Numbered from the stretch's first letter, positions 17,456 to 34,180 are shown. The stretch is 48,777 nt of DNA from Methanoregulaceae archaeon (GCA_028679325.1 JAJRBS010000171.1:1-48777), one strand, 5' to 3'. Notes: generated from the sequence alone by a model not told the origin. Numbers and translations: made by a program.

Positions 17456-17459
17456 TCCT

Positions 17460-18857
17460 TTACTCCTTGCGGTGGGTGGGGTGATACTTCTGGATATAGT
17501 CCCGTTTGATCCTCTTCAATTCATCCTCGGGAAGGGTGGCAAACAGGTGCCATCCGATGTCAAGGGTCTGGCTGATGGTCCGGTTCTCGTCACCCTGGGT
17601 GATGAACTGCCTTTCGAAATCATCGGCAAATTTCAGGTACTTCTTATCGAGCTCGGTCAGTGCTTCCTCCCCGACTATGGCGACGAGCCTTCTTAAGTCT
17701 CTTCCATAAGCATACGAGGCGTAGAGCTGGTCGGCCACATTGCGGTGATCTTCCCGGGTCTTCCCGGGGCCGATACCCAGATTCATGAGACGTGAGAGGC
17801 AGGGGAGGGCGTCGACCGGAGGATCGGCACCGCGACGGAAGAGGTCCCGGGAAAGGACGATCTGTCCTTCCGTGATGTAGCCGGTGAGATCCGGTACCGG
17901 GTGGGTGATGTCATCATCAGGCATGGTCAGGATGGGGATCTGTGTGATGGATCCCTTACTTCCCTTGACCCTCCCTGCACGTTCGTAGATGGAGGCCAGG
18001 TCGGTGTACATGTATCCCGGATAGCCCCTCCTCCCCGGGACTTCTTCCCGGGCAGTGGAGATCTCACGAAGTGCCTCGCAATAGTTGATCATGTCGGTCA
18101 GGATGACCAGCACGTGGAGGTCGTGGGTATATGCCAGGAACTCCGCCGTGGTCAGTGCGACCCGGGGGGTAGCGATCCGCTCGATTGTCGGATCGTCGGC
18201 AAGGTTCATGAAGAAGACCACCCGTTCCAGAGCGCCGGTCCTCTCGAAATCCTTCATGAAGAACGAGGCTTCTTTATAGGTGATTCCCATGGCGACAAAG
18301 ACCACAGCAAACTTCTCCTCCTCACCGAGCACCCGGGCCTGGCGGGCGATCTGGGCCGCCAGCTTGTTGGCCGGGAGCCCGGCACCTGAGAAGATGGGGA
18401 GCTTCTGACCCCGTACCAGCGTGTTAAGGCCGTCTATGGTTGACATCCCGGTCTGGATGAAATCCGCCGGAGTGTCCCGGGCGGAAGGATTGATGGGCAT
18501 ACCATGGATGTCAAGGTTCGCCTCTTCCATGATCTCCGGGCCTTTGTCCCGTATCTTGCCCACGCCATCAAAGATACGGCCCAGCATGTCGACAGAGACA
18601 CGTATTCTCGGAGGCTCCCCCGTAAACCGGACCCGTGTCTTCAGGGTATCGATGCCGCTTGTGCCCTCGTATACCTGGACGACAGCCATATCCTTCGAGA
18701 TGTCGAGGACCTGCCCTGTCCTCTCATCGCCGTTCGGCGTAACGATCCGGACGACCTCACCGTAGGAGACCCCTTTCACGTTCTGGACAAATATCAGCGG
18801 GCCTGAGACATACCCGACGGTCCTGGACTCCTTGGAATACAGCGGTGTTCCGGTCAT
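17460..18857 (-). CDS. atpB: A-type ATP synthase subunit B
   Basis: 465 aa. Regulatory-subunit signature segments: [37 protein letters not shown]. It has a 4-nt overlap with atpA. Confidence 0.97.
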
Positions 18858-20590
18858 TCTCCCTCGAGCCCCCTGAGTTCATCGTTGATATGGGAGACCA
18901 GCCCCTTGATCTGCTCCACATCGGTAAGTTCTTTCATTCGCCCGATCTCTGCCTTGACGGGGATCTTCAGGATTTTCGTGAGGGGTACACCCCGTCCCAT
19001 GGCCTGGTTCACACGTTCGTAGAATGCGATGATGACCTTCAGCATCCAGTATTGCTTGTCGAGCGGGCAGAACGAATCGACCTCGTGATAGGCGCTCTGC
19101 TGGAGGAAATCCTCGCGTATCATCCGGGTTACCTCAAGGATTGCCTTCTCGCTCTCCGGCAGTGCATCAGGTCCGACAAGCTGCACGATCTCCTGGAGCT
19201 CGACCTCCTTCTGGAGGAGGTACATGGTCTGTGCCCGAAGATCCTTCCAATCCGCAAAACCGGTCTTTTCATACCACTCCCTCACCTGCTCAAGGTAGAG
19301 TGAATAGCTCTTGATCCAGTTCACGGACGGGAAATGGCGCCGGTAAGCGAGGCTCGTGTCAAGCGCCCAGAAGGTGCCGGTTATCCTGAGGGTATTCTGG
19401 GTGATTGGTTCTGAGAAGTCGCCGCCGGGAGGCGAGACAGCGCCGACAACGGTGATAGAACCCAGCCGTTCCCCGGAACCAAGGCAGACGACACGGCCTG
19501 CCCTCTCATAGAATGCAGCGAGCCTCGTTGCCAGGTAGGCGGGATAGCCCTCTTCGCCCGGCATCTCCTCGAGCCGCCCGGAAACCTCGCGGAGCGCCTC
19601 ACCCCAGCGCGAGGTGGAGTCTGCCATCAGGGCAACGTCATAGCCCATATCGCGGTAATATTCTGCCAGAGTGATGCCCGTGTAGATCGACGCCTCGCGG
19701 GCAGCGACAGGCATATTGGAGGTGTTTGCGATCAGGATGGTCCTCTGGATAAGGGGAAGGTTGGTCCGGGGATCCAGCAGTTCGGGGAATTCGGTCAGGA
19801 CATCGGTCATCTCGTTCCCGCGTTCACCGCACCCGATATAGACCACGATCTGGGTATCGGACCACTTGGCAAGGGTCTGTTCGGCAACGGTCTTTCCTGT
19901 TCCAAAACCTCCCGGTATCATCGCCGTCCCCCCCTTGGTTACCGGGAAGAGGGTATCAAAGACCCTCTGGCCGGTGGCAAGGAGAGTATCAGGGTCCATC
20001 TTCCGGGTATATGGCCTCCCTTTCCGAACAGGCCACGTCTGCATCAGGGAAATTTCTGTACCGTCTTCGAGCCGGGCGATGGTATCATCCACCTTGAACT
20101 TCCCTTCGAAGATCTCGCGGATAGTGCCGGAAACGAGCGGGGGGACCATGACCCGGTGCTCGATATGGTACTCGGTAACGGTTCCGATAACATCGCCCCC
20201 GGTTACCTGGTCACCTTTCCGGGCCCGGGGGAGAAACTCCCAGGAACGCTCTCTTGAGAGCCCGGGCAGCGAGATGCCCCGCGTGATGAAATTTCCGCTC
20301 TTCTCTGCCAGGAGGGGGAGGGGGCGCTGGATGCCATCGTAAATAGACGAGAGGAGACCCGGGCCCAGTTCCACCGACAGGGGAAGCCCGGTGTTTACCA
20401 CCTTCTCCCCCACCTTCAGGCCTGTGGTATCCTCATAGACCTGGATGACCGCCTGGTCGCCATCGAGCCGGATAATTTCGCCGTTCAGCTCCTGTTCACC
20501 AACCTTCACCACATCATACATCTGGGATCCCCGGAGCCTTTCAGAAAGGACCACGGGGCCAGAAATCCTTGAAACAACGCCGCTGATCAT
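18854..20590 (-). CDS. atpA: A-type ATP synthase catalytic subunit A
   Basis: 578 aa. Walker [33 protein letters not shown]. The size is consistent with the insertion that distinguishes A/V-type catalytic subunits from F-type beta. Confidence 0.97.
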
Positions 20591-20595
20591 GGTTA

Positions 20596-20916
20596 CTACT
20601 TCCGAAGCACGATGTTGTACCCGATTGCCCGCCGGAGAAGTTTTTCTATGTAACTGGTCCTGTCGAGCTTCCTTGACCCTGCGGGTATGGGGATGATGAT
20701 CGGCCGGTATGACTTCTCAATCTTCTCCAGTGTTTTCTCATCGAGGAGCGCCATGTAGTCCTCGTTCATCGCAATAATGCCGGTATCATCCCTGGCAAGC
20801 AGGGAGGGCAGCAGCGCTGCTGCCTCACCGGGGTCCGGTATCTCCATGACCTCCACCCCGGCCAGGCGGAATCCCGGCGCTGTGTCAGGGTCAGTGACGA
20901 TGATGAATTTATACAC
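20596..20916 (-). CDS. atpF: A-type ATP synthase subunit F
   Basis: 106 aa. [21 protein letters not shown]... is typical of V/A-type F subunits. Operon position fits. Confidence 0.9.
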
Positions 20917-21961
20917 TGATCAGCGCCTCCCTGAGATCTTTTTCAGGAACCTCGGAGACAAGGCACCGGGCTATGACCCTGATATTGGTCACTTCTGCGT
21001 ACTTTGCCCACGTGTATGCTATGGCATAGGCGATCGAGAGCGGGTCACCAATGAAGTAGCCAATCCCTTTCCTGACAAGATACCTGTCCAGTTCCTTTTC
21101 AAAGGCCGAGATCTTCTGCGCCGAGACATATTCGGGGGGAACCTGCGTCAGGAACTGGTAGCTCGTGTGTTCGAGGTGTTTCAGGGCCCCCTCGAGAGTT
21201 CCGCCCTTCATCATGGAGAGGAGGGTGGCCAGGCCAAGTTCACTGCTCCCTTCGAGGAGATACCGTTTTGCATCTTCGCGATCTATCTGGTCCCGGAGCA
21301 CCCGGAATACGGTCCGGAGATTGCTGATATCGATCTCTGTGATGACCATATCCCTGATGACCCGGTGGTCCTCTGTCTCTCCCCCCTTCAGGGTCGCCAG
21401 GGCATACTGGTAGTAATACGTATCGATGGCGTATTCGAGCACCAGCATATCCCGGGTATCGGAATACTCCTTGAAAGCCTTCGTCAGCGGGCGGGAATAG
21501 ACGATGCCCCAGGTGGCAAGCAGGTCGATGACTGACTTGACATCCGGCTGTTTGACAAGCTCGGTGAGCGCCGCTTCATCAAGCTCCCCGGCCGGGATCG
21601 TGCAGTCGAGTATCTCGCCGGGCGTGGCGTGAATTCTCTTCCCCCGGAGGATGGTCTTGATATTCTGGACATCATACCGGTTGAGGGTGATGGCAAGGAG
21701 ATTCTCCTCTTCTTCTCCGGATGTAAAACTGAGGAGGTTCCTGAATGCCCTGACAAGATCTTTCCGGAGAGCGTACTCAATGCGGGTGACGCCGGAGTAC
21801 TGGACTCCTGCCCTCTCCAGTTCTTCCCGGTACGGCGTTTTCTCGAGTTCGGTGATGAGAGCGTCAATATCATGCTTGTTGATCAACTGGTCCAGCTGGC
21901 GGCGATCGAGAAGGCGGCTCTTCATGGCCCGGATCCGGGAGTTCACGTATGCATATTCCAT
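20909..21961 (-). CDS. atpC: A-type ATP synthase subunit C (the d-like subunit)
   Basis: I chose the ATG at 21961 (MEYAYVNSRIRAMKSRLLD...), the typical C/d N-terminus. It begins 1 nt after the atpE stop. The track ORF starts at an upstream TTG (21988). Confidence 0.93.
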   Translation of the reverse strand: MEYAYVNSRIRAMKSRLLDRRQLDQLINKHDIDALITELEKTPYREELERAGVQYSGVTRIEYALRKDLVRAFRNLLSFTSGEEEENLLAITLNRYDVQNIKTILRGKRIHATPGEILDCTIPAGELDEAALTELVKQPDVKSVIDLLATWGIVYSRPLTKAFKEYSDTRDMLVLEYAIDTYYYQYALATLKGGETEDHRVIRDMVITEIDISNLRTVFRVLRDQIDREDAKRYLLEGSSELGLATLLSMMKGGTLEGALKHLEHTSYQFLTQVPPEYVSAQKISAFEKELDRYLVRKGIGYFIGDPLSIAYAIAYTWAKYAEVTNIRVIARCLVSEVPEKDLREALISV

Positions 21962-21962
21962 G

Positions 21963-22547
21963 TCAGTCACCGAACAGGATAGCAACAATGTCAGGCCTGT
22001 AGACTTCTCCGGCCTTCTTCAGGCGGGATTCGATGGTATTGACGATTGTGAAACGCTCGTCACGGGTGTTTGCGCTCAACCCGCCGGCAGAGACCAGGTC
22101 GGGTATCACATCATAGTTTAAGGACCTCTCGAGAAGGAGCTCCCTGCAGAGGAGTGAATCCCTCGGATCGATATGCAGAATGACATCTTTCTCTCCGAGT
22201 TCAGAGACGACTTCACCGAGCATTCTATTGAATCCTGTCCTGTACCCCGGTTGTTCCCGTATGGCGGCCAGTCTTCTCTCCGCTTCGTCAAGCGCGGCCT
22301 GGAAGATCTCGTTTTTCATCTTCAGGATCTCCCGCTGGTTCTCTTTCCGTATGGAAGAGAGGAGCCGGTTCCGCTGAAGCTCGACTTCTGCAACCGCCTT
22401 GTCATGGTGACGCTTCCGGATAGACCCGCCCCTGCTCTGGGCCTCCCGGATGATCTCATCTGCTTCGGCCTTTGAGCGTTCCTGGATCTCATGGAGACGT
22501 TCCTGGGCGCTCACCTCAACGGAACCGATCAAGTCTTCAAGTGCCAT
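21963..22547 (-). CDS. atpE: A-type ATP synthase subunit E (peripheral stalk)
   Basis: 194 aa. It has an N-terminal charged coiled coil and a C-terminal globular part. Operon position fits. Confidence 0.9.
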   Translation of the reverse strand: MALEDLIGSVEVSAQERLHEIQERSKAEADEIIREAQSRGGSIRKRHHDKAVAEVELQRNRLLSSIRKENQREILKMKNEIFQAALDEAERRLAAIREQPGYRTGFNRMLGEVVSELGEKDVILHIDPRDSLLCRELLLERSLNYDVIPDLVSAGGLSANTRDERFTIVNTIESRLKKAGEVYRPDIVAILFGD

Positions 22548-22577
22548 GTCTTCACCAGCACCTTCAGATGCCTCGTC

Positions 22578-22796
22578 TCAGACGAGCATGATCATGATCA
22601 TAGTAGCGACGACAAAACCCAGAATGACGAGAGTTTCAGGGATCGCCACCATGATGATCATCAGCCCAAAGAGATCCGGTTTTTCCGCGATCGTCCCTGC
22701 TCCCGCCGCACCAATCTTTGACTGTGCAATACCGGTACCAAGCGCTCCAAGCCCGAATGCGATGCCTGCCCCAACGGGGATTCCCCAATCAACCAT
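22578..22796 (-). CDS. atpK: A-type ATP synthase proteolipid subunit K (c), single-hairpin 8-kDa form
   Basis: 72 aa with two TM helices. Q in helix 1 (GIAQSKIGAAG) and the carboxylate motif PETLVI in helix 2. Confidence 0.93.
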   Translation of the reverse strand: MVDWGIPVGAGIAFGLGALGTGIAQSKIGAAGAGTIAEKPDLFGLMIIMVAIPETLVILGFVVATMIMIMLV

Positions 22797-22996
22797 TCAC
22801 ATCAGTCTCCTGTAAAATTTCGCGCCGCCGGTATGTGCACAGGCGGCACACTCCATTTTGTTCTCCTGCCTTACAGAGGATATCACCTGACGGTTGTAAC
22901 CGCGGATACCCGGAATGACCCGTTCCTCGCTCATGTCTCAGGATTACATGACTCATTCCCTACCTTTTATCTGGAACTTAATCTCTCTGTCAGTCA

Positions 22997-24946
22997 TCAG
23001 GAATTCCCACTGTCTTCTTTCTTGAAGGGGCTGTACAATTTTCCCCCTCCTGCATAGAACTTTGAATCGAATTCCACCAGGTGCAGACGGAGCGAGTGGA
23101 GGAACGGGCTGAAAATGGCAAGAACAATGTTCATGGCATGGAGGAGCGCCGCAATCACGAATCCGACGATTGCAACTTCCGCCATCCCTCCCAGGGTGTT
23201 CGCGACGAGTGCCAGGATGACTGAGGCCATCCCGATGGCCATGATACGTGCATAGGACAGGATGTTTCCCATCGTGCTGATGATCTCGAAGGTGCCGAAA
23301 AATCCTCCTCCGTAAATAAGGAGGGGGAGGGCAAGGACAATCATTATGATTCCGAGGACAATCAGCGATGCGGGGATGACCACTGCCGCAGCACAGATGG
23401 CAATGATCAGGCCAGTGATGGCGATCATCATCCCGACCTTCTCACAGATGTGTTTCTTGGCCTTGGCGACATGCCGGTGGCAGCTGATCTCCGAATAGGC
23501 ATTCAGGACACCGATTCCCAGCCCTAAAAAGACATGGAATATCCCGATTGTTATAGCCAGCAGGAGGAATGGCACAATCGCCTCGACACGATCCCAGGTT
23601 ATTCCCATGAACGTGACCGGCTCGAGCCACCCCATCTCCTGACCAAGGTTTCCGAAGAATTCACCAAAGATGAACCCGAAGAATATGGCCCAGAGTGCCC
23701 CCATAATGACAATGTTTCCCAGGTGCTGGGCCCAATCAACCCCGGCCATTTTCCACTTTATCAGGAGTGCAATACCTATAATGATGAGGCCGTAGGCTAT
23801 GTCGCCGACCATCAGCCCAAAGAATATCGGTAAGAATATGGCCATCAGCGGGCTCGGGTCAAATTCCGTAGATTTCGCCGGGCTGACGACCTTCATCAGG
23901 TATTCAAACGGTTTGACTATCCGGGGATTGTCGTAAAAAGTCGGTGCATTGGCCATCTCTTCCGGTGTGATGGGAATTTCGTTGACCAGCACACGCCCGC
24001 CAAAATTGTCCCGGAGCTCGTTCTGGGTATTCTTGAAAAATTTCTTGGGAATCCACCCTATCAGGACAAAGGTATAGTCGGTCTGTCCCAGACGTGAAAA
24101 GACGCCGAGTTCTTCATTCCTGTCCTCAAGTATCTGCTTGAGAGCAGTGAGTTCGACGGAGCGTTCGGTTGAGATCTTCACGAGCTCTGTGTTGATACGG
24201 GTCATCTCCTGCGTGGCGTCGCTCTTCTTCTGCTCTATCAGGGTGTAAACCTCGGAAAAAGGCTTTCCCAGGTACTCGGGGGGCAGCCGTATCTCGTTGA
24301 CATTCTGGGTGAAGAGGAAAGAATGAACCTGCTCGGAATACTTCTTATTGAAGATGGTCACCGCTGCAAGCGTCGACTCATCGACATCGGCGGAGATCAG
24401 TTCGAACTGTTTCCTGGTGATATCGGTGAGGTTACTCCGGATGACTTCGAGCAGGTCCTTGAATTCCTTCTGGATAAGGAGGACTGTAACCTCAAAGCCT
24501 TCCAGGATGGGGAGGGTGCTTTCAAGGGGGCGGATCTTGTCGATGATCTTTTCATACCGAGTCAGGTTCGCAAGCGCCAGCTCAATCTCGCTCTTTGATG
24601 ATGCAAGGTTCCTGGTGACCGGGTCAAGCTCGGAAATGACGCTGTTTGTCCGGGAGATGAGCTCGGCATGTTCCATAGCCCGGAACTTTTCAAATGCGGC
24701 GGCGACCTCCTTCTTTTCCAGGGAGATCTTCGGAAGGGTGAGGAGAATAACTCCGATCTTTCCCAGGGCCGCGGAGATGCTGTCGGCCTCGTCTACACTC
24801 ATTCTCCGGAGCATAACCCCGCCCACGGTTCCTTCCGCCGTTGCATCCTCTATCTGGACTGTTCCTTTCCGGTAGAGCAGGTCCATGACATTGTGAAGGT
24901 CCTCCTGGGGACCTATCACCTGGATCTTCATCATCTTCTGAAGCAT
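22997..24946 (-). CDS. atpI: A-type ATP synthase subunit I (the a-like stator subunit)
   Basis: 649 aa. Hydrophilic N-terminal half and polytopic C-terminal half, with the conserved stator Arg in HSLRLHLVEF. Confidence 0.95.
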   Translation of the reverse strand: MLQKMMKIQVIGPQEDLHNVMDLLYRKGTVQIEDATAEGTVGGVMLRRMSVDEADSISAALGKIGVILLTLPKISLEKKEVAAAFEKFRAMEHAELISRTNSVISELDPVTRNLASSKSEIELALANLTRYEKIIDKIRPLESTLPILEGFEVTVLLIQKEFKDLLEVIRSNLTDITRKQFELISADVDESTLAAVTIFNKKYSEQVHSFLFTQNVNEIRLPPEYLGKPFSEVYTLIEQKKSDATQEMTRINTELVKISTERSVELTALKQILEDRNEELGVFSRLGQTDYTFVLIGWIPKKFFKNTQNELRDNFGGRVLVNEIPITPEEMANAPTFYDNPRIVKPFEYLMKVVSPAKSTEFDPSPLMAIFLPIFFGLMVGDIAYGLIIIGIALLIKWKMAGVDWAQHLGNIVIMGALWAIFFGFIFGEFFGNLGQEMGWLEPVTFMGITWDRVEAIVPFLLLAITIGIFHVFLGLGIGVLNAYSEISCHRHVAKAKKHICEKVGMMIAITGLIIAICAAAVVIPASLIVLGIIMIVLALPLLIYGGGFFGTFEIISTMGNILSYARIMAIGMASVILALVANTLGGMAEVAIVGFVIAALLHAMNIVLAIFSPFLHSLRLHLVEFDSKFYAGGGKLYSPFKKEDSGNS

Positions 24947-24952
24947 AGGCCT

Positions 24953-25273
24953 CTAGTCCGGAAGCACAAGGCTTACTATCTTCTCAACTGCCCCTGGCAG
25001 ATTCTTCCCGCCCCGGTCACGAATTGCCGTGATCTCATGCACCCGTTCGGCCCGAAGGCGGTCGGCCTCTGCATTGAGCCTTTTCATTTCGCCCTGAAGA
25101 TATTCACCGGCTTCCCTTTCTGCCTCCGTCTCTTCTCTGTTCAGAAGGGCAGAAGCCTCCCGGGAAGCCTGGTCGAGCACCTGATCGGCCTTGTTCCTCT
25201 CCTGGTCGATCCTGACGCTCATCTCAAGCTCCTTCTCACGGATCTTCTGCAAAAGTGATTTTTCAGTCTCCAT
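24953..25273 (-). CDS. atpH: A-type ATP synthase subunit H (small coiled-coil stalk subunit)
   Basis: I chose the ATG at 25273 (METEKSLLQKIREKELE...). It is a charged coiled coil and the first gene of the operon. The track ORF begins at an upstream TTG (25294). Confidence 0.85.
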   Translation of the reverse strand: METEKSLLQKIREKELEMSVRIDQERNKADQVLDQASREASALLNREETEAEREAGEYLQGEMKRLNAEADRLRAERVHEITAIRDRGGKNLPGAVEKIVSLVLPD

Positions 25274-26019
25274 GCCAAAATCTCCTGGAACCAACGGAGC
25301 AGCTCAAAAAACGAGCCGGCCATATACCAATGATGCAGCTGCTCTCACTCATCGACGTCCTCCATGCACCCGCGAGGGTGTTCTACCTGCGGTTTTTCTG
25401 TCTTTTTACAGGTTTCTATTCTCGAAGTCTCTTCATATACACCGCGGATATCAAATTCGCGGGAATCCCTGTTACTGTACTATTCTCCCTCTTCACGGAT
25501 CTTAACGGGAGCTACAAGCCATGTCTGTTCTTCAGGAGTGAGGAGATCCCATGCGGGGGGGGCTGGGATTCTTTCCGGTCTCCGCACTCCTTTGATGCAT
25601 TTTCGATGCGCTCCTCGCACCTACGGATAGCCATGAGTTTCAGTCTTTGAATCATTTCGGAGTTTTTCACAGACATAGGGTTGACCACTCTGTCGTCAGG
25701 TTGGGATCGCGAGATCCTTCATTTACGAGACGATAAAACTATGCTCGAGGGAAAACGGAGGGAGAATGATGCTTCCCCCCCGGTTTATTTCAGATCGAAC
25801 CTTTCTCCTCTCAGACCAGACTTTTGAAAGGCCGGTCTGCTGCGTCGATCCGGCTCTGATTGCCGAGGGTAGGATGTCGGAAGAAACAGCTGAGGTATGA
25901 TATATCCAGGGCGCGGGTCGGACTGGAAAGATGACGAGGATGAGGATTCCAAAGAGACCGATCAAAACATGGAATTTTTTATCCCAGCCTGTTATACCCT
26001 ACAGTGAAAGGGTTTTTTC

Positions 26020-26631
26020 ATGGTGGAAGATATCAGGGACCTTATCGAAAAAATCAACCAGGACGGGATCAGGGCAGCAGAGGAGAAGGCCCGGGATATC
26101 GAGGATGCCGCCCGCCGGAGGGCCGATGACATCATCGCAGCAGCACAGCATGACGCGGAAAATCTGATCTCTGCAGCGAAGGAGAGGATTCGCCGCGAAG
26201 ACGAGAAGGAGAGAACCCTGCTTGTCCAGGCAGGGAGGGATATGCTCCTCTCTCTCCGCGAGGAGATCAATGCCATGCTGGGACGTATCCTGGTAACAGA
26301 TATCCGGAAATCCCTGACCCCCGAGGCACTCTCCATGATCCTGGCAGAAGCGGTCAGGAAATCTGGCAATGAGGCGTCCGGGGACATCATTATCTTCCTC
26401 TCTCCGGAAGACCGTGAAACTCTCGAGCAGAATTTTATGGCACGACTCAGGGAAGAAACAGGAAAAAAGATAGTCGTCAGGCCTTTGGGAGACATCTCCC
26501 GAGGCTTTTCCATCAGTTATGACCGCGGAAAATCCTGCTATGATTTTTCCGACAAGGCCCTGGCAGAGTATATCGGGACATACCTGAAGCCGAGGTTAAA
26601 CCGGATCCTCGAGGAATCTACTAAGGATTGA
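26020..26631 (+). CDS. atpE: V-type ATPase subunit E (second ATPase operon)
   Basis: 203 aa. N-terminal charged coiled coil (IRAAEEKARDIEDAARRRADDIIAAAQHDAENLISAAKERI) and a C-terminal globular part. It is the first gene of the plus-strand operon. Confidence 0.8.
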   Translation: MVEDIRDLIEKINQDGIRAAEEKARDIEDAARRRADDIIAAAQHDAENLISAAKERIRREDEKERTLLVQAGRDMLLSLREEINAMLGRILVTDIRKSLTPEALSMILAEAVRKSGNEASGDIIIFLSPEDRETLEQNFMARLREETGKKIVVRPLGDISRGFSISYDRGKSCYDFSDKALAEYIGTYLKPRLNRILEESTKD

Positions 26632-26638
26632 GAAGAGG

Positions 26639-27184
26639 ATGGCTGATTTTTACCCTTACCTGGTTGCAAGCTTCCCTATGCTTCACTTCGGCATGAAACC
26701 GCCATTTTCGTTTGAACGATTTTTAGGGGAATGCCAGCCTTTTATGCCGGAGAAGGACTTCAAGATCCTGAGCACCCTGCCGCTGCCGGAGGAGTACCAG
26801 GAAAGAGAAGAAGAACACCCGCTCGTCCGGCACTGGATCGAATTTGATACGGCCCTGAGAAACGAGCTGGTCCGGACTCGCGCCGCCAGAATCCGGCGGG
26901 ACCCTGCTGCATATAGCCTTGCCGGAATTTACGGCGATTCCTCCCTCGGCCCGGCAGTCATGGCTGCAGGCACAAACAGCTCTCTCTCCGGTGCAGAAAA
27001 GGCCCTCGATGAACTCCGCTGGAAAAAACTCGATGATCTGGCCACGGGCCATTATTTCGACCTGGACTTTCTGATAACTTTTGGTTATAAGCTCATGATC
27101 CTCGAGCGCTGGGAGCGGATCCGGACAGCGGATGGGCGGATCCTGCTTGAACAGGTTCTGGCAGGGGGAACTGCGATACAATGA
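26639..27184 (+). CDS. DUF2764-like protein (the short ORF that sits between E and A in minimal bacterial V-type ATPase operons; possible C/d-subunit substitute)
   Basis: 181 aa. The N-terminal YPYLVASFPMLHF motif resembles, from memory, the YYLVSSLPxL start of DUF2764 proteins. Its position between E and A, and the 4-nt overlap with atpA, support co-translation. Confidence 0.55.
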   Translation: MADFYPYLVASFPMLHFGMKPPFSFERFLGECQPFMPEKDFKILSTLPLPEEYQEREEEHPLVRHWIEFDTALRNELVRTRAARIRRDPAAYSLAGIYGDSSLGPAVMAAGTNSSLSGAEKALDELRWKKLDDLATGHYFDLDFLITFGYKLMILERWERIRTADGRILLEQVLAGGTAIQ

Positions 27185-28917
27185 CAGAACAACGAAAAGG
27201 ACGTGTCACGAAGATCAGCGGGAACATGGTTACAGTCGGTTTCGATTCCCCGGTCATGCAGAATGAAGTCGCTTATATCCTGCATGCAGGGGAGCGTCTC
27301 AAGGCAGAGATCATCCGGGTGCGCGGCAACCTTGCAGAGATGCAGGTCTACGAAGCGACAGGAGGGTTGAGAATCGGCGAAGAAGTTGAGTTTACCGGGG
27401 AGCTCCTTTCCGTTGAGCTTGGCCCGGGAATGCTTGGACAGATCTTTGACGGCCTCCAGAATCCTCTGCCGGAAATCGCCGAGCAATGCGGTTTTTTTCT
27501 CAAGCGCGGTGTCTATCTCAATCCACTCTCCGAGAAGGAGCGCTGGGACTTTACCCCTGTCGTTACCCCCGGGAAGAGTGTTTGTGCAGGGGATAAACTC
27601 GGGTATGTCAGCGAGAAGATATTCAGGCACTACTGCATGGTCCCCTTCTCCTTCCAGGGACATTTTGAGGTTCAATCGATTGAAGGTAGCGGCAGTTTTT
27701 CGGTCCGTGATGTTGTTGCACGGCTGAAGGATCCGGAGGGGAAGGGCCATCCCGTGTACCTGAGCCAGCAGTGGCCGGTTAAAATCCCCATCCAGGCCTA
27801 TGCCGAGCGGCTGAAACCCGGAGAACCGCTGGTCACACGGATGCGCCTTATCGATTCCCTCTTCCCTGTGGCACGGGGCGGGACATACTGCATTCCGGGT
27901 CCTTTCGGGGCGGGAAAAACAGTCCTGCAGCAACTGACCAGCAGGCATGCCGAAGTGGATATCGTGATCATTGCGGCGTGCGGTGAACGTGCCGGCGAAA
28001 TAGTCGAGACCATCAAGACTTTTCCGGCGATACAGGATCCCCGGACCGGACGCCCGTTAAGCGATCGCACGGTCATCATCTGTAATACCAGTTCCATGCC
28101 TGTCGCTGCCCGGGAATCGAGCGTGTACACGGCAGTTACCATTGCCGAATACTACCGCCAGATGGGCCTCAATGTCCTCCTGCTCGCCGACTCCACCTCG
28201 CGCTGGGCACAGGCCATGCGGGAGATGTCCGGGAGGCTCGAAGAGATTCCGGGGGAAGAGGCATTCCCGGCCTACCTCGAGTCACGGATTGCCTCCTTCT
28301 ACGAGAGGGCAGGGGCGGTTCGACTGTATGACGGCTCGACAGGCTCGGTGACTATCGGGGGTGCCGTAAGCCCTGCCGGCGGGAACTTCGAAGAGCCGGT
28401 GACCCAGGCGACGCTGAAGGTGGTGGGTGCCTTCCATGGCCTTTCGCGCAGCCGGTCGGATGCCCGGCGTTACCCGGCGATCGACCCGCTGATCAGCTGG
28501 AGCAAGTACGATAGTTTCATCGATGGAAAAAAGGTGGAGCGTGGGCACGCACTCCTCCGCAGGGGCTTCGATATTGCGCAGATGATGAAAGTTGTCGGAG
28601 AGGAGGGCACCTCGCTTCCCGACTATGTCGATTATCTCAAGGCAGAATTTTTTGATTTCGTGTACCTCCAGCAGAACGCCTTTGACCCGGTTGACGAGGC
28701 CACCCCGAAAGAACGGCAGATCTATGTCTATGATTTTATCTATGGTATCATGGAATCCGAATTCACCTTCGAGGACAAGGATACCTCCCTGCATTTCTTC
28801 CAGAAGATGCGCCAGCTCTTCAGGGGATGGAACTCCACCCCCTGGGAGAGTCCGGAGTTTTTGGAAAGCGAGAAGGAGATCAGGGAATTTCTGGCCGGGC
28901 GCCTGGTGAAAGGGTAA
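27181..28917 (+). CDS. atpA: V-type ATPase catalytic subunit A (second copy)
   Basis: 578 aa. Walker [33 protein letters not shown]. It is clearly diverged from the minus-strand atpA. Confidence 0.95.
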
Positions 28918-28918
28918 C

Positions 28919-30217
28919 ATGCAGAGATACTACATGAACATCAGCCAGATTATCGGGGACGTCATCACCGTGGAGGCCGATAATGTTGGCAACAATGAAC
29001 TCGCACAGGTGGTCACCGGACGGGGAACGTCCCTGGCGCAGGTCATCCGCCTGGACGGAAAGAAGGTATATTTACAGGTATTTGCCGGAAGCCGTGGCAT
29101 TTCTACCGGCGACAGGGTGCGGTTCCTCGGCCACCCTATGCAGATAGCGACCGGGGAGAAGCTCCTCGGCCGCATCTTTAATGGAAGCGGCAAGCCCCTG
29201 GACAACGGGCCGGAGTTTTCGGAAAATCTGGTTGATATCGGGGGACCTCCGGTAAACCCGGTCAGGCGCGTCATCCCGGATAAGATGATCCGGACCGGCA
29301 TTCCCCTGATCGATGTATTCAATTCCCTGGTCGAATCCCAGAAGCTCCCTATCTTTTCCATAGCCGGCGAGCCCTACAATGAACTGCTGGCAAGGATCGC
29401 CACTCAGGCCGAGGTCGATATCATCATTCTCGGCGGCATGGGTCTGAAGTACGATGACTACCTTTTCTTCAGGGACACCCTCGAGGAGCACGGCGCTTTA
29501 TCCCGTTCGATCGTTTTCATGCACACCGCTGCCGACCCTGTCGTGGAATGCCTGCTTGTCCCGGATATCAGCCTGGCGGTCGCCGAAAATTTTGCGCTTG
29601 AGGGAAAAAGAGTGCTCGTCCTGCTGACGGACATGAGCAATTTCTGCGACGCGCAAAAGGAGATTGCCATCACCATGCAGCAGATCCCTTCAAACAGGGG
29701 CTACCCCGGGGACCTTTACAGCATGCTGGCGGCCCGCTATGAAAAGGCCGTCGATTTCGAATCGGCGGGCTCGATCACCATCCTCGCGGTAACGACCATG
29801 CCGGGAGACGACGTGACCCACCCGATTCCCGACAACACCGGGTATATCACCGAGGGGCAGTTCTACCTCAAGAACGGAGTCATCGAACCGTTCGGTTCCC
29901 TGAGCCGCTTAAAGCAACTGGTCAACGGAAAAACCCGCGGTGATCACCGGATCATCATGGACACCATGATACAGCTCTTCGCCGACTACCGGGAGACACA
30001 GGAGAAACAGGCCATGGGATTTCAGATGAGTGCATGGGACGGAAAACTTCTCCGCTACGGGAGGCTTTTTGAAGAACGGATGATGTCCCTTTCCGTGAAC
30101 ATTCCCCTGGAAAAAGCACTGGATCGGGGCTGGGAGATCCTGAAGGAGTGTTTCTCTCCCGAAGAGACAGGGATCAGCAGATCCATGATCGATGAATACT
30201 GGCAAAAGCAGCTATGA
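28919..30217 (+). CDS. atpB: V-type ATPase subunit B (second copy)
   Basis: 432 aa. [57 protein letters not shown]. Confidence 0.95.
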
Positions 30218-30822
30218 AAATACGACTGACTCAGGGTGAACTCAAGAGACAGAGGGATTCCCTCCGGCAGTACGAGAGGTACCTGCCCACCCTCCAGCTG
30301 AAGAAGCAGCAGTTGCAACTCGAGATCCTCCACCAGCAGCGGTCCCGGACCGAGAGGGAGAATTCTCTTGCAGCGTGGGAGGAAACGGCAAAGGAATGGC
30401 TGGGCCTTCTCATCGAAGCTCCGGAGATCGGGCAATGGATTGTTCCTGAGAGTATCATCGCTACCAGGAAGAACATCGCCGGTGTCGACGTGCCGGTCTT
30501 TATCCGTGTGGATTTTGTACCGGCAGAGTATGACCTGTTCACAACCCCTCTCTGGGTGGATACAGCTCTTGAGAGGCTGAAAGAGCGGGTGTCGCTGGGG
30601 GAAGAGCTGAGTATCCTCGAACAGGGAATAAACATTCTCAGGCATGAGCTTCGCATAACGACCCAGCGCGTCAACCTGTTTGAGAAGATCAAGATCCCCG
30701 AGGCAAAGGAAGCAATACGGGTCATAAAGATAGCCATGGGTGACAGGATGACCAGTGCTGTCGGCCGGAGCAAGATCGCAAAAAACAAGGTCGAAGAAGA
30801 TCATCGGGAGGTGGCTGTGTAA
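30214..30822 (+). CDS. atpD: V-type ATPase subunit D (second copy)
   Basis: 202 aa. Its long helical coiled coil, [26 protein letters not shown]..., resembles the D rotor stalk. It has a 4-nt overlap with atpB. Confidence 0.85.
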
Positions 30823-32586
30823 ATGATCGTCCCCATGAAGAAAGCCACCATCCTGTGCGAGACAAAGGATGCGGAAGCTACCGTACGACATCTGCGTAGC
30901 ATGGGGGTCATCCACGTCCAACACGAGAACCCGCCCGAGGGCAAGGATATCTCTGACCTCCGGGCCAGTTCCGCTCTCATCGACTCGACTGTAGAGGTTC
31001 TGAACCAGGTGGATGCATCAAAGAGAGATCTTCAGCCGCAGGTGAAGATCAGTGGCGACTGGACGGCAGTTGCTGCCAGAATCATCGAGCTCGGCAGACG
31101 CAGGGAACAACTGGAGTCCTTGTCCGAAGACCTGACCGGTCAGATCAAGGAGTGGGAGCGCTGGGGTGATGTCGATCTTGGCCAGGTTCAGCACCTGGGG
31201 GAGAACGGGGTTTACCTGAAGCTGTGTCAGGTCCCGGTCAAGGAAACCGGGAAATTTCCCGATGACATGGTCGTAAAAAAACTTTTCACCGAGGGTAACA
31301 CCGATTCCTGCGTAGTGATATCGCTCCGGCAGTTTGAATGCCCTTTCACCGAGATACTTCCGCCGAAACAGACTGTCTCTTCGCTCAAGGAACAGCTCGC
31401 CAGCACTGCTGAGATGATCGAGGCCGCAGACCGCGAGATCGTAACATCTGCCCGGTTTCGTGATGACCTTCTGCGAATGAAGGGAGAACTTGAGAAAGAG
31501 ATCGAATTTCAGCAGGTCATGCACGGCATGGGGAAGCAGGGCCCTGTCGTTTACGTCACGGGATACTTCCCTTCCGATGGCGAAGAGCATCTGGTTTCCG
31601 AGGCCAGAAAACAGAAATGGGGGATCATGGTGACCGAACCCCCGCCCGAGGAAAATGTGCCGACGCTGCTCCGGAATCCCTCATGGGTCAACCTCATCAA
31701 GCCCGTGCTCGGGCTTCTCGGGCTCACTCCCGGCTACCATGAACTTGACATCAGCCTGCCGTTTCTGATCTTCTTCTGCATCTTTTTTGGCATCCTCATC
31801 GGTGATGCCGGTTATGGACTGGTCTATATCCTTCTCACGCTTCTGATAACGATCTGGTTGTACAGAACCATGAAACTGAATGCGGAGATGAAAACGATGG
31901 TTTCGCTTTTTTATCTCCTCGGTTCTTGTGCAGTTATATGGGGCCTCCTGACCGGGACGTTCTTCGGCCAGGGATTGCTGCAGCCCCTTGTCCCGCAGCT
32001 GACCGATCCCAGAACGGTGGAGACATTCTGCTTCTTTCTGGGAGCGCTACATTTGTCCATAGCCCATACCTGGCGGGCTGTCCTGAAGTATCCGTCCCTG
32101 ACAGCCCTTGCTGACGTCGGTTATATCTGCATTCTCTGGACCGCGTTCTTCCTGGCCCAGACCCTTGTCCTCGGAGAACCGTTTCCAGCATTTGGGATAT
32201 GGCTGGTTGTGACAGGGATCATGCTCGTGATATTATTTACCAACCCGCAGCGACGGGTGCTCAGGGGCATCGGTGAAGGTGTGGGGACGATGGCATTGAG
32301 TTTCATGAACAATATTACCGACGTGATCTCGTATGTTCGCCTCTTTGCCGTCGGTCTTGCAGGCCTTGCCATCGCAGAGACGACAAATACACTGGCATCC
32401 GGGATTGGTACGGGCATCATCGCGCTGGCGGCAGGTTTCGTAATTCTTATCATCGGCCATGGCTTAAACATCATTTTAGGAATAATATCCGTACTCGTGC
32501 ATGGCGTCAGGCTGAACGTCCTGGAATTTTCAGGGCATGCGAACGTCACCTGGAGTGGGTCTGCATTCGAACCGTTCAAAGAATAG
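30823..32586 (+). CDS. atpI: V-type ATPase subunit I (second copy)
   Basis: 587 aa. Hydrophilic N-terminal half and polytopic C-terminal half, with the stator Arg in HGVRLNVLEF. It starts immediately after the atpD stop. Confidence 0.9.
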   Translation: MIVPMKKATILCETKDAEATVRHLRSMGVIHVQHENPPEGKDISDLRASSALIDSTVEVLNQVDASKRDLQPQVKISGDWTAVAARIIELGRRREQLESLSEDLTGQIKEWERWGDVDLGQVQHLGENGVYLKLCQVPVKETGKFPDDMVVKKLFTEGNTDSCVVISLRQFECPFTEILPPKQTVSSLKEQLASTAEMIEAADREIVTSARFRDDLLRMKGELEKEIEFQQVMHGMGKQGPVVYVTGYFPSDGEEHLVSEARKQKWGIMVTEPPPEENVPTLLRNPSWVNLIKPVLGLLGLTPGYHELDISLPFLIFFCIFFGILIGDAGYGLVYILLTLLITIWLYRTMKLNAEMKTMVSLFYLLGSCAVIWGLLTGTFFGQGLLQPLVPQLTDPRTVETFCFFLGALHLSIAHTWRAVLKYPSLTALADVGYICILWTAFFLAQTLVLGEPFPAFGIWLVVTGIMLVILFTNPQRRVLRGIGEGVGTMALSFMNNITDVISYVRLFAVGLAGLAIAETTNTLASGIGTGIIALAAGFVILIIGHGLNIILGIISVLVHGVRLNVLEFSGHANVTWSGSAFEPFKE

Positions 32587-32624
32587 ACAGGAAAATTTCG
32601 TCGAGGAGATAAAAGGAGAATAGC

Positions 32625-33074
32625 ATGGATCCCGTCATGATGCAGTTTCAGGATCTGGGAATGGGTCTGGTGCTTGGCCTGTCGGCCGCCGGATCGGCTG
32701 CTGGAGCAGGAGTTGCCGGGATGGCAGCGATTGGGGCATGGAAGAAGAAGTTCAGCCAGAATAAACCGGCATCGTTCATGCTCCTTGCTTTTGTCGGTGC
32801 ACCTCTCACCCAAACGATCTATGGCATGATCGTCATGAACAGGATGTATGAGATTACCGTTCAGGGACCGGCTCTCTGGGGTATTGGTGCTTTTTGCGGC
32901 TTTGCCATCGGGCTCTCCGCATACTTCCAGGGTAAATGTGCTGCCTGTGCCTGCGATGCGATGGAAGAGACGGGGAAGGGATTTGGAAACTACATGATCA
33001 TCCTGGGTATGACCGAGACCGTTGCCCTGCTGGTGATGGCTTTTACCCTGGGAATCCTTGGCAGGTTCGGGTAG
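32625..33074 (+). CDS. atpK: V-type ATPase proteolipid subunit K, duplicated 16-kDa (4-TM) form with a single carboxylate
   Basis: 149 aa with four hydrophobic helices. Only helix 4 carries an acidic residue (GMTETVALL). Helix 2 has PLTQTIYG and helix 3 has YFQGK. Confidence 0.9.
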   Translation: MDPVMMQFQDLGMGLVLGLSAAGSAAGAGVAGMAAIGAWKKKFSQNKPASFMLLAFVGAPLTQTIYGMIVMNRMYEITVQGPALWGIGAFCGFAIGLSAYFQGKCAACACDAMEETGKGFGNYMIILGMTETVALLVMAFTLGILGRFG

Positions 33075-34020: not shown

Positions 34021-34180
34021 GTGTAACTCCCTGGGAAATATCCCGGACCCGGCCGCATCAGGCGGTATCGGGGCAGCAGACAATAGATATTATCTGCGAT
34101 ATTTAATGATATCCTGTTTTCCTGTCGCCTGTGAAACTTTTATTTCGTTCCGTGCTAACATGTAGCATAATTTATGGGAG

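What the first reader, a model, noticed from the sequence alone, without database searches (positions are those of the whole stretch)
26020..33074. Second rotary ATPase: a minimal bacterial-style 7-gene V-type operon, head-to-head with the native A1AO ATP synthase operon
Seen: the minus strand carries the canonical archaeal atpHIKECFABD operon (16796-25273). About 750 bp away, and divergently oriented, the plus strand carries a second operon. Its genes are E (26020), a DUF2764-like ORF (26639), A (27181), B (28919), D (30214), I (30823) and K (32625). They are tightly packed, with 4-nt overlaps. There are no F, no full-length C/d and no H subunits. The A, B, D, I and E products clearly diverge from their minus-strand counterparts, so this is not a recent tandem duplication.

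Established: from memory, the order E - short hypothetical - A - B - D - I - K is the layout of the V-type ATPases of Chlamydia, Porphyromonas/Bacteroidetes and some spirochaetes.

Inference: the operon was probably acquired horizontally. It may run as an ATP-driven ion pump rather than as a synthase. That would give a methanogen-like cell separate machines for ATP synthesis and for ion (Na+) homeostasis, controlled from one shared divergent region.
Basis: partly seen in the sequence, partly recalled or inferred. Interest (0 to 1): 0.65.

Follow-up and report, generated by a model that had tools for sequence, protein, structure and literature searches.

The report
Bacterial sodium V-ATPase operon in methanogen
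A wetland methanogen (family Methanoregulaceae) carries, next to its own ATP synthase genes, a complete second rotary ATPase operon that it acquired long ago from PVC-group bacteria (Omnitrophota-like) and has kept intact; it most likely moves sodium ions, and it shows that this minimal seven-gene ATPase type, described until now only in bacteria, also exists in archaea.

Summary
The minus strand carries a native atpHIKECFABD operon. The plus strand carries seven tightly packed genes: E, DUF2764, A, B, D, I and K.

The horizontal-transfer interpretation is strongly supported.
- The two A and two B proteins in the window are only 42% and 38% identical.
- B2 is 74–83% identical to B subunits of Omnitrophota, Planctomycetia, Lentisphaeria, Verrucomicrobia and Spirochaetia, all in operons with the same gene order.
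- In an A+B tree the archaeal copies form one clade (100% bootstrap) nested inside an Omnitrophota/Planctomycetia clade (96%).

The transfer is old. Codon usage matches the host, the operon's proteins have diverged in step with the native operon's, and the operon sits at the same locus in five Methanoregulaceae lineages.

The operon looks functional. All seven genes are under purifying selection (dN/dS 0–0.23). Fragments appear in five metatranscriptome runs.

K2 keeps every Na+ ligand of the Enterococcus hirae Na+ pump. The native K resembles the Thermus synthase rotor.

The head-to-head layout is an inversion specific to this lineage, because four other lineages are tandem. The "shared" region also holds a conserved 58-aa ORF.

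Whether the enzyme pumps or synthesises remains an inference. I call it a new archaeal member of a known bacterial type.

The parts
26020..26631 (+). E2: the peripheral-stalk subunit E of the acquired V-type ATPase (203 aa) and the only stator-stalk protein in the operon
   Evidence: Best NCBIfam match is PRK01558, V-type ATP synthase subunit E, at E=4.5e-39, but below its cut-off. An ortholog in L084 carries a weak PF01991 hit. dN/dS is 0.19 against L085.
26639..27184 (+). X2: DUF2764 protein (181 aa), the marker of this operon type; possibly a half-size counterpart of the rotor-socket subunit C/d
   Evidence: PF10962 at E=1e-10. All 41 diverse homologs hit only DUF2764. The AF2 model has pLDDT 79.9 and is all-helical. 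Foldseek gives no significant hit, but ranks 1 and 4 are Thermus subunit C/d. dN/dS is 0.23. Homologs support the 181-aa start over the 146-aa database call.
27181..28917 (+). A2: catalytic subunit A (578 aa)
   Evidence: NF003220 at 752 bits. Walker A GPFGAGKT at 240, GERAGE at 268, Walker [11 protein letters not shown] at 332. 42% identical to the native A1. dN/dS is 0.09.
28919..30217 (+). B2: non-catalytic subunit B (432 aa)
   Evidence: Equivalog PRK02118 at 732 bits, cut-off 431. 38% identical to the native B1. 74-83% identical to PVC-bacterial B subunits.
30214..30822 (+). D2: central-stalk subunit D (202 aa)
   Evidence: PF01813 at E=4e-36. Equivalog PRK02195 at 209 bits, cut-off 189.
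30823..32586 (+). I2: membrane stator subunit I/a (587 aa)
   Evidence: PF01496. Best NCBIfam match is PRK05771.2-2 at E=1e-128. The conserved stator arginine R506 lies in SYVRLF.
32625..33074 (+). K2: duplicated (four-helix) rotor-ring subunit K (149 aa) with one carboxylate and a complete Na+ ligand set
   Evidence: Equivalog PRK06649 at 175 bits, cut-off 127. The family profile's best PDB hit is E. hirae NtpK 2BL2 over its full length. T62, Q63, Y66, Q102 and E131 correspond to NtpK T64, Q65, Y68, Q110 and E139. Q63, Y66, Q102 and E131 are invariant in 35 sequences. The ligand list comes from PMC2359735.
33154..34083 (-). Tandem-domain universal stress protein gene, convergent with K2 and co-inverted with operon 2
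   Evidence: PF00582 twice, E=2e-42. It lies next to K2 in all archaeal loci and in none of the bacterial loci.
25689..26019 (.). True spacer upstream of E2. It holds the inversion breakpoint and presumably operon 2's own promoter, with a T-rich TATA-like element about 40 nt before the ATG
   Evidence: Sequence read. The spacer is 86% identical to L085 only and is not alignable to the tandem lineages. The promoter assignment is an inference.
25512..25688 (-). Conserved 58-aa ORF upstream of atpH. It belongs to the native operon's side of the 'divergent region'
   Evidence: tblastn matches of 37-83% identity in L004/L084, L006, L081/L082 and L085. L083's own 57-aa ORF hits this window region reciprocally at 39%. 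ORF listed.
16796..25294 (-). Native archaeal A1AO ATP synthase operon atpH-I-K-E-C-F-A-B-D, the neighbour and comparator
   Evidence: Pfam hits for all nine genes. K1 (72 aa, single hairpin) best matches Thermus V/A-ATPase subunit K at E=2e-15, with the same GTG(I/V)AQ...PETLVI motif.

Best explanation
The region 26020-33074 is a complete, intact and still-used seven-gene V-type rotary ATPase operon (E, DUF2764, A, B, D, I, K). It belongs to the minimal type known from Bacteroidota, Spirochaetota and PVC-group bacteria.

Origin. An ancestor of a Methanoregulaceae subgroup acquired the operon once, from an Omnitrophota/Planctomycetia-like bacterium. It was inserted next to the native A1AO ATP synthase operon and has been inherited vertically since. 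In the window's lineage the block [operon + Usp gene] was later inverted, and that inversion produced the head-to-head layout.

How it works (inferred).
- The A3B3 head hydrolyses or makes ATP, and its catalytic motifs are intact.
- D alone forms the shaft.
- E alone forms the stator stalks.
- The DUF2764 protein probably takes the place of the C/d rotor socket.
- I provides the ion half-channels, and its essential arginine is present.
- A ring of four-helix K subunits carries one Na+ per subunit, using the same ligands as the Enterococcus hirae Na+ pump.

Most likely role. I think it most likely runs as an ATP-driven Na+ export pump for sodium homeostasis or stress, alongside the native enzyme that makes ATP.

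Status of each step. Shown: identity, origin, age, integrity, selection and the Na+ ligand set. Weakly shown: transcription. Inferred: Na+ specificity, subunit roles and the direction of operation.
For: Identity:
- Pfam and NCBIfam assignments, with B, D and K above the cut-offs of the subfamily equivalogs PRK02118, PRK02195 and PRK06649.

Origin:
- A1/A2 are 42% identical and B1/B2 38%. B2 is 74-83% identical to bacterial homologs.
- All 80 genome loci are colinear in the order E-DUF2764-A-B-D-I-K.
- In an NJ tree of A+B (72 taxa, 1008 columns) the 7-gene type has 100% support on a stem of 0.56. The archaeal clade has 100%. It is nested in a 32-leaf Omnitrophota/Planctomycetia clade at 96%.
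- The nearest bacterial contig, L007, carries fpg and pyrK-D-F upstream of its operon. L008 (Omnitrophota) has ORFs of similar size and spacing there, though I did not annotate them.

Age:
- GC3 is 0.61-0.72 against 0.58-0.73 for the native operon, and RSCU correlates at r=0.93.
- Operon-2 proteins have diverged between lineages as much as native ones, for example I2 61-67% against I1 60-69%.
- The operon sits at the same locus in the window/L085, L004/L084, L006, L081/82 and L083.

Function retained:
- All orthologs are full length. dN/dS is 0.00-0.23 for all seven genes, the same range as the native operon.
- Metatranscriptome contigs cover E2, X2/A2, B2, D2 and I2 in run X1. Fragments at 99% identity or better occur in X26, X28 and X29, and fragments at 95-99% in X27.

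Mechanism:
- Walker A and B, the GER..E motif and the stator Arg are present.
- The K2 ligands map to NtpK, and the ligand list is given in PMC2359735.
- The native K1 resembles the Thermus synthase rotor.
- PMC2359735 Table 1 lists Chlamydia and Porphyromonas gingivalis as having a V-type and no F-type ATPase. The seven genes therefore probably suffice on their own.
- In Bacteroides fragilis the same operon type is dispensable normally but essential under deoxycholate stress.
Against: - The direction of operation is not determined by sequence. A ring of 10 K subunits gives 3.3 ions per ATP, which is compatible with synthesis as well as pumping (authors' response in PMC2359735).
- The authors of the B. 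fragilis paper themselves favour a synthase role.
- The Na+ ligand set predicts Na+ binding but does not prove it.
- The metatranscriptome evidence comes from assembled contigs at low depth. Several runs are flagged 'RNA?', and DNA carry-over is possible.
- The tree is neighbour-joining only. The exact sister group is unresolved (64%), and many bacterial MAG labels are unreliable.
- The DUF2764 = C/d idea rests on non-significant Foldseek hits (E about 1, TMq 0.30-0.40). Sequence profiles gave nothing.
- All named archaeal carriers are MAGs, so none could be checked in a culture.
Confidence: 0.6

Rival explanations
1. Same acquired operon, but working in the other direction. It would be a second, Na+-driven ATP synthase that harvests the Na+ gradient made by the methyltransferase Mtr directly. 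It could have a different gear ratio or ion preference from the native enzyme.
For: K2 has the complete Na+ site. The native K1 shares its motif with the Thermus subunit K, and I recall that the Thermus enzyme is H+-coupled. It lacks the Gln65 and Tyr68 equivalents, so its Na+ use is not assured. Ten-subunit rings can run either way (PMC2359735). The B. fragilis authors propose a synthase role for their ortholog.
Against: Where a cell has two rotary enzymes and the V-type has been studied (E. hirae, from my own knowledge; B. fragilis fitness data), the V-type is the conditional, stress-linked one. No cultured Methanomicrobiales species appeared among the 80 best B2 loci, so the native enzyme may suffice for growth. 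One carboxylate per four helices is the classic pump-side adaptation.
Confidence: 0.27
2. It is an ATP-driven proton pump used for cytoplasmic pH homeostasis in acidic wetland or peat habitats, not a sodium pump.
For: The organism recurs in wetland, freshwater and subsurface metagenomes. V-type ATPases are often H+ pumps.
Against: All five E. hirae Na+ ligand positions and the stabilising Tyr are conserved. Four of them are invariant across 35 family members. H+-specific rings typically lose these residues.
Confidence: 0.07
3. It is a lineage-specific duplication of the native A1AO operon that then diverged rapidly and lost genes.
For: The two operons are adjacent. M. hungatei is reported to have three 'AoA1' clusters (PMC4704411).
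Against: A and B are only 42% and 38% identical to the native copies, but 74-83% identical (B) to bacterial homologs with the same seven-gene order, including DUF2764. The archaeal clade is nested within bacteria at 96-100% support. A2 and B2 fail the archaeal equivalog cut-offs TIGR01043 and TIGR01041.
Confidence: 0.01
4. It is an assembly or binning artefact, with a bacterial fragment joined to an archaeal contig.
For: All carriers are metagenome assemblies. One 5-kb contig of the archaeal clade is labelled Deltaproteobacteria (L002).
Against: The same junctions to native archaeal genes (Usp, atpH..., liv genes) recur in at least six independent assemblies from different studies and lineages, including a 1.15-Mb contig. 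Codon usage matches the host. The operon's proteins have diverged in step with the native operon's.
Confidence: 0.01
5. It is a decaying, non-functional relic of an old transfer.
For: No experimental data exist, and expression evidence is thin.
Against: All seven genes are intact in every lineage examined, with catalytic and ion-site residues conserved. dN/dS is 0.00-0.23. Transcript fragments occur in five runs.
Confidence: 0.03

Closest known systems
Minimal seven-gene bacterial V-type ATPase with DUF2764 (Bacteroides fragilis PTOS_002482-88; Porphyromonas; the divergent 'Chlamydia/Borrelia/Treponema/Bacteroides' clade)
   Same: The gene order is E-DUF2764-A-B-D-I-K. There are no F, C/d or G/H genes. 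K is duplicated and carries the E. hirae Na+ ligands. B, D and K pass the subfamily equivalog cut-offs. Phylogenetically it lies inside this type.
   Different: The host is an archaeon. The B. fragilis paper states that DUF2764 is exclusively bacterial. The partner enzyme is an A1AO synthase, not an F-type one, and the operon sits directly beside it. The DUF2764 protein is the short form of about 180 aa, which matches only the C-terminal part of the 271-position Pfam profile.
Enterococcus hirae Na+-translocating V-ATPase (ntpFIKECGABD; K ring 2BL2)
   Same: K is a four-helix subunit with one Na+ site built from the same residues. It coexists with a second rotary enzyme that makes ATP. From my own knowledge, E. 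hirae uses it as an ATP-driven Na+ pump.
   Different: The E. hirae operon has F, C and G subunits. K2 scores only 31 bits on the PRK06558 K model (cut-off 127). A2 is no closer to E. hirae A than to the Pyrococcus or Thermus A subunits (425 against 447 and 411 bits).
Native archaeal A1AO ATP synthase (atpHIKECFABD), as on the minus strand of this window
   Same: It belongs to the same A/V superfamily, and A, B, D, I and K are homologous.
   Different: It has nine genes against seven, and a single-hairpin K. Identity to operon 2 is 27-42%. A2 and B2 score far below the archaeal equivalog cut-offs (543 against 972 and 336 against 845).
Bacterial-origin N-ATPase (F-type) operon of Methanosarcina acetivorans and M. 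barkeri (from my own knowledge)
   Same: It is a precedent for a methanogen holding a second rotary ATPase of bacterial origin, predicted to be Na+-coupled, beside its A1AO synthase.
   Different: That one is F-type with a different gene set. The alternate-F1FO models TIGR03305 and TIGR03324 score only 82-86 bits on A2 and B2.
Three 'AoA1' clusters of Methanospirillum hungatei JF1 (Aha1-3; PMC4704411)
   Same: It is another member of Methanomicrobiales with several rotary ATPase clusters. Two of them lie two genes apart (Mhun_1757-1765 and Mhun_1768-1775), and the latter has only eight genes.
   Different: The paper describes them as archaeal-type with conserved gene order. I could not test whether Aha3 is this seven-gene type. 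No M. hungatei locus appeared among the 80 best B2 matches.

Membership tests
Minimal bacterial V-type ATPase (DUF2764 type) | Gene order E - DUF2764 - A - B - D - I - K in one operon | tested here: met
   ORFs and domain hits. Colinear with 80 loci from bacteria and archaea.
Minimal bacterial V-type ATPase (DUF2764 type) | No F, C/d or G/H subunit genes | tested here: met
   No PF01990, PF01992 or PF16999 hit in the operon, and gaps are 38 nt or less. The native operon has all three.
Minimal bacterial V-type ATPase (DUF2764 type) | Subfamily-specific sequence models (NCBIfam equivalogs) | tested here: inconclusive
   B (PRK02118, 732 against 431), D (PRK02195, 209 against 189) and K (PRK06649, 175 against 127) pass. 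E (PRK01558, 134 against 241) and I (PRK05771.2-2, 431 against 799) are best hits but below cut-off. A passes only the general subfamily model NF003220.
Minimal bacterial V-type ATPase (DUF2764 type) | Phylogenetic placement of A+B inside the clade | tested here: met
   The clade has 100% bootstrap. The window is nested in the Omnitrophota/Planctomycetia subclade at 96%. The tree is NJ only.
Minimal bacterial V-type ATPase (DUF2764 type) | Four-helix K subunit with one carboxylate and Na+ ligands | tested here: met
   K2 is 149 aa with two ATP-synt_C hairpins. T62, Q63, Y66, Q102 and E131 align to NtpK T64, Q65, Y68, Q110 and E139.
Archaeal A1AO ATP synthase | atpHIKECFABD gene set, and archaeal A and B equivalogs TIGR01043 and TIGR01041 | tested here: not met
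   There are seven genes in a different order. A2 scores 543 against a cut-off of 972, and B2 scores 336 against 845.
Enterococcus-type Ntp Na+ V-ATPase | Operon with F, C and G subunits; K matching PRK06558 | tested here: not met
   F, C and G are absent. K2 scores 31 bits against a cut-off of 127.
Enterococcus-type Ntp Na+ V-ATPase | ATP-driven Na+ transport | not testable with these tools
   Only the ligand set could be checked.
V-ATPase subunit C/d (PF01992), for the DUF2764 protein | Sequence or fold similarity to subunit C/d | tested here: inconclusive
   No Pfam hit, PDB-profile hit or hhalign signal. Foldseek on an AF2 model of pLDDT 80 gives no hit at E<=0.001. Ranks 1 and 4 of 350,542 chains are Thermus subunit C/d, with probability 0.30-0.35 and TMq 0.30-0.40.

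The most novel reading that the evidence does not exclude
The two adjacent rotary machines may form a deliberate division of labour by ion. The native enzyme has a Thermus-like rotor without the full Na+ ligand set and would handle protons or be promiscuous. The bacterial-type enzyme would be the cell's dedicated Na+ machine. Coupled through the ATP pool, the pair would interconvert Na+ and H+ gradients, or would let the Mtr-generated Na+ gradient be harvested directly. The conserved Usp gene between them would act as the switch.

A corollary concerns the complex itself. The seven-subunit complex, with the DUF2764 protein as a half-size rotor socket and E-only stators, would be a structurally distinct minimal class of rotary ATPase. 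No structure of this type has been solved.

The donor group, Omnitrophota, includes nanobacteria that attach to or prey on methanogens, which would provide the route of transfer.
Probability: 0.15. Interest if true: 0.75.

Novelty: new member of a known kind. Interest (0 to 1): 0.5.

Why it matters
Methanoregulaceae are among the main methane producers in wetlands and peat. Their energy budget is extremely tight, so a second conserved and selected rotary ATPase is not a trivial expense. It implies a real need, probably sodium or stress homeostasis, that current models of hydrogenotrophic methanogenesis do not include.

In evolutionary terms it would be a round trip, if bacterial V-type ATPases did come from archaea as PMC2359735 argues. 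The type was reshaped in bacteria into a minimal seven-gene form and then returned to an archaeon, where it settled beside the original.

It also corrects the published statement that DUF2764 is exclusively bacterial. It adds a well-conserved set of archaeal sequences to a V-ATPase type that has no solved structure and no biochemistry. That type matters for Bacteroides bile tolerance, and it is the only rotary ATPase type listed for Chlamydia and Porphyromonas gingivalis in PMC2359735.

Tried and rejected
- My recollection that Anderson et al. 2009 (Methanomicrobiales genomes) described a second bacterial-like ATPase was wrong. The paper contains no mention of ATPases.
- Ten full-text searches found no paper that discusses this operon in Methanoregulaceae. 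Absence from this library does not prove that it is unpublished.
- The first AF2 model of X2, built from 41 close homologs, was unusable at pLDDT 51. A deeper alignment of 113 sequences gave pLDDT 80.
- The X2 profile against PDB sequences gave no hit even at E<=10. Pfam at E<=1 gave only DUF2764. hhalign against native C, F, H, E and D alignments gave probabilities below 1%, but those alignments had only 2-4 sequences.
- K2 alone against the PDB gave no hit. The family profile was needed.
- No inverted repeats mark the inversion breakpoints; only short chance-level pairs turned up.
- E2 upstream regions do not align across lineages, so I found no conserved promoter motif beyond AT-rich patches.
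- There are no Rfam families in 14000-35000.
- The genome scan lists only the 80 best of more than 592 matches, found through exact 8-residue patterns. It therefore cannot show that the operon is absent from cultured Methanomicrobiales such as M. boonei or M. hungatei.

Full report
OBSERVATION

The ORF map reproduces the finding exactly. On the plus strand lie E2 (26020-26631), a DUF2764 protein X2 (26639-27184), A2 (27181-28917), B2 (28919-30217), D2 (30214-30822), I2 (30823-32586) and K2 (32625-33074). The X2/A2 and B2/D2 junctions overlap by 4 nt, and the other gaps are 0-38 nt.

Pfam and NCBIfam confirm each assignment. On the minus strand Pfam confirms a canonical atpH-I-K-E-C-F-A-B-D operon at 16796-25294. 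Operon 2 has no gene that matches subunit F, C/d or G/H, and there is no space for one.

The paired proteins are distant: A 42%, B 38%, D 28%, I 27%, and E and K not significantly similar.

One detail needs correcting. The 725-bp "divergent region" contains a conserved 58-aa ORF on the minus strand (25512-25688). This ORF accompanies atpH in other lineages too: it matches L004/L084, L006, L081/82 and L085 at 37-83% identity, and L083's own 57-aa ORF hits this window region at 39%. The real spacer before E2 is therefore about 331 bp.

WHOSE GENOME

The closest A2 homologs (80-99% identity) come from metagenome-assembled genomes named Methanoregula sp., Methanoregulaceae archaeon, Methanolinea sp. 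or Methanomicrobiales archaeon. The operon DNA is found almost complete in wetland, freshwater and subsurface metagenomes from many studies.

ORIGIN

A scan of one genome per prokaryotic species with B2 returned about six archaeal loci at 86-89% identity. After those came dozens of bacterial loci at 73-83%: Omnitrophota (including a single-cell genome), Planctomycetia, Lentisphaeria/Victivallales, Verrucomicrobia and Spirochaetia.

I mapped all window proteins onto the 80 loci. Every locus long enough shows the same order, E-DUF2764-A-B-D-I-K.

I then built a bootstrapped neighbour-joining tree of concatenated A+B (72 taxa, 1008 columns), rooted on the native A1/B1.
- The seven-gene type forms a clade with 100% support on a long stem (0.56).
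- The archaeal sequences form one clade (100%).
- That clade is nested in a 32-leaf Omnitrophota/Planctomycetia clade (96%).
- The exact sister group is unresolved (64%).

The nearest "bacterial" contig, L007, has fpg and pyrK-pyrD-pyrF upstream of its operon. L008 (Omnitrophota) has ORFs of similar size and spacing in that position, but I did not annotate them. L007 therefore looks bacterial, not mis-binned archaeal DNA.

That test fails decisively, so horizontal transfer from bacteria stands.

A reviewer comment in Mulkidjanian et al. 2008 (PMC2359735) already singles out a very divergent Chlamydia/Borrelia/Treponema/Bacteroides V-ATPase clade. A B. fragilis study describes the same seven-gene operon with DUF2764 and notes that it has never been characterised.

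AGE AND INHERITANCE

- GC3 of operon 2 is 0.61-0.72, against 0.58-0.73 for the native operon. Relative codon usage correlates at r=0.93.
- Between the window and four other archaeal lineages, operon-2 proteins have diverged as much as native ones. For example I2 is 61-67% identical and I1 is 60-69%.
- In every archaeal contig with enough flank, the operon lies beside the A1AO operon. This holds for the window and L085 (96% identical A2), L004/L084, L006, L081/82 (Methanolinea sp.) and L083 (Methanoregula sp., a 1.15-Mb contig).

Together these point to one old acquisition followed by vertical descent.

LAYOUT

The four more distant lineages are all tandem: operon 2, then a convergent tandem-domain universal stress protein gene, then the small ORF, then atpH... 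on the same strand.

Only the window and L085 are head-to-head. Comparison of the flanks shows that exactly the block [operon 2 + Usp] is inverted. L006 branches at the base of the archaeal clade and L004 is close to the window, so tandem is the ancestral state.

The Usp gene is found next to the operon in all the archaeal loci and in none of the bacterial ones. It therefore belongs to the recipient's locus. A shared bidirectional control region is not a property of the system.

IS IT FUNCTIONAL?

All orthologs are full length.

Nei-Gojobori dN/dS between the window and L085 is 0.00-0.23 for the seven genes, including X2 at 0.23. That is the same range as the native operon.

A2 keeps Walker A (GPFGAGKT), GERAGE and Walker B. 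I2 keeps the stator arginine.

Metatranscriptome contigs from a leaf-litter study cover E2, X2/A2, B2, D2 and I2 at 94-96% identity, with depths similar to the native C/E genes. Fragments at 99% identity or better occur in three further freshwater/wetland runs, and 95-99% fragments occur in a fourth run from leaf litter. This expression evidence is weak: it comes from assembled contigs at low depth, some runs are flagged as uncertain RNA, and DNA carry-over is possible.

ION AND DIRECTION

A profile of 35 K2-family sequences finds E. hirae NtpK (2BL2) as its best solved match, aligned end to end.

The Na+ ligands listed in PMC2359735 are Glu139, Gln110, Thr64, Gln65, the Leu61 carbonyl and the stabilising Tyr68. 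They correspond to K2 E131, Q102, T62, Q63, A59 and Y66. Of these, Q63, Y66, Q102 and E131 are invariant in the family. K2 has one carboxylate per four helices.

The native K1 is a single hairpin. Its closest solved relative is the Thermus thermophilus V/A-ATPase subunit K (E=2e-15), with an almost identical site motif: GTGIAQ...IPETLVILG against GTGVAQ...LLPETLVIFG. K1 lacks counterparts of Gln65 and Tyr68.

So the acquired rotor looks like that of a known Na+ pump, and the native rotor looks like that of an enzyme I recall, from my own knowledge, to be an ATP synthase. This fits the pump idea but does not prove it, because ten-subunit rings can run either way. I put the pump role at roughly one in two, a second Na+ synthase at about one in four, and a proton pump well below that.

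THE DUF2764 PROTEIN

The family is large. It has 2441 representatives at the 50%-identity cluster level with E<=0.001, and the closest 150 are mostly 170-190 aa.

Sequence methods find no relation to any stalk subunit.

With a deeper alignment AlphaFold gave an all-helical model (pLDDT 79.9, pTM 0.75). Foldseek against the PDB gave no significant hit. However, the two hits with the highest probability among 350,542 chains are both the Thermus rotor-socket subunit C/d: 8ywt_M at rank 1 and 1r5z_A at rank 4, with TMq 0.30-0.40.

I read this as a hint that DUF2764 is a roughly half-size counterpart of C/d. It is not a demonstration.

COMPARISON AND NOVELTY

The operon meets the architectural, phylogenetic and rotor criteria of the minimal bacterial V-type ATPase. 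It fails those of the archaeal A1AO and of the Enterococcus Ntp type (see the membership table).

No solved structure belongs to this type. A2 is about equally distant from the Pyrococcus, Enterococcus and Thermus A subunits.

The genes are annotated in public MAGs. I found no paper that discusses them in archaea, and the B. fragilis study states that DUF2764 is exclusively bacterial.

The M. hungatei genome paper reports three "AoA1" clusters, two of them nearly adjacent, and calls this highly unusual. Whether one of them is this type remains untested.

VERDICT

The horizontal-transfer interpretation is confirmed, and I have narrowed the donor group and the timing. The shared-promoter idea is rejected. 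The pump role is plausible but unproven.

It is a new, archaeal member of a known but uncharacterised bacterial ATPase type. Its interest is moderate.

Noticed in passing
window 25512-25688 (-): A conserved 58-aa ORF lies directly upstream of atpH. tblastn matches it in L004/L084, L006, L081/82 and L085, and L083's own 57-aa ORF hits this window region reciprocally. The shared motif is ...E(M/L)I..LK...RC(E/R)ER...HG...LL...G(L/M)-stop. Its function is unknown. It may be a regulator or an unrecognised small subunit of the native A1AO operon.
   Followed up: partly
window 33154-34083 (-) and 14528-15430 (-): Two tandem-domain universal stress protein paralogs (43% identical) bracket the whole two-operon ATPase cluster. 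The first lies next to operon 2 in all the archaeal loci and was inverted together with it.
   Followed up: partly
L068 1946-6700 and 7166-14125: An Omnitrophota MAG (UBA10183) has a second V/A-type cluster (F-A-B-D, 53-56% identical to the window's native A and B) immediately upstream of its seven-gene operon. Two adjacent rotary ATPase operons therefore also occur in the donor phylum.
   Followed up: no
L081 3942-5444 and L082 3869-5371: In the Methanolinea MAG a sodium:solute symporter gene (PF00474) lies just upstream of operon 2. This is consistent with, but does not prove, a sodium-related neighbourhood.
   Followed up: no
Methanospirillum hungatei JF1, Mhun_1757-1765 and Mhun_1768-1775 (PMC4704411): The genome paper reports three 'AoA1' ATP synthase clusters. 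Two lie two genes apart, and one of those has only eight genes. This spacing resembles the operon 2 - Usp - small ORF - A1AO layout seen here, and I could not check it.
   Followed up: no
window 26639-27184 (+): The public gene call for the DUF2764 protein of this contig is 146 aa (P0127) and starts at an internal Met. Homologs of 176-181 aa cover 96-100% of the 181-aa ORF, so the longer start at 26639 is the likely one.
   Followed up: yes
L002 (5158-bp contig labelled Deltaproteobacteria): This contig sits inside the archaeal clade (B2 89% identical, 100% bootstrap for the clade). It contains only operon genes, so it is either mis-binned archaeal DNA or a secondary archaeon-to-bacterium transfer.
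   Followed up: no
window 34181-38846: A branched-chain amino acid ABC transporter is split into convergent halves: livG-livF on the plus strand facing livK-livH-livM on the minus strand. The same arrangement is conserved in L004/L084 and L085.
   Followed up: no
window 16474-16803 (-): A 109-aa ORF overlaps the end of atpD by 8 nt and has no Pfam match. I did not check whether it is conserved or is a real tenth gene of the native operon.
   Followed up: no
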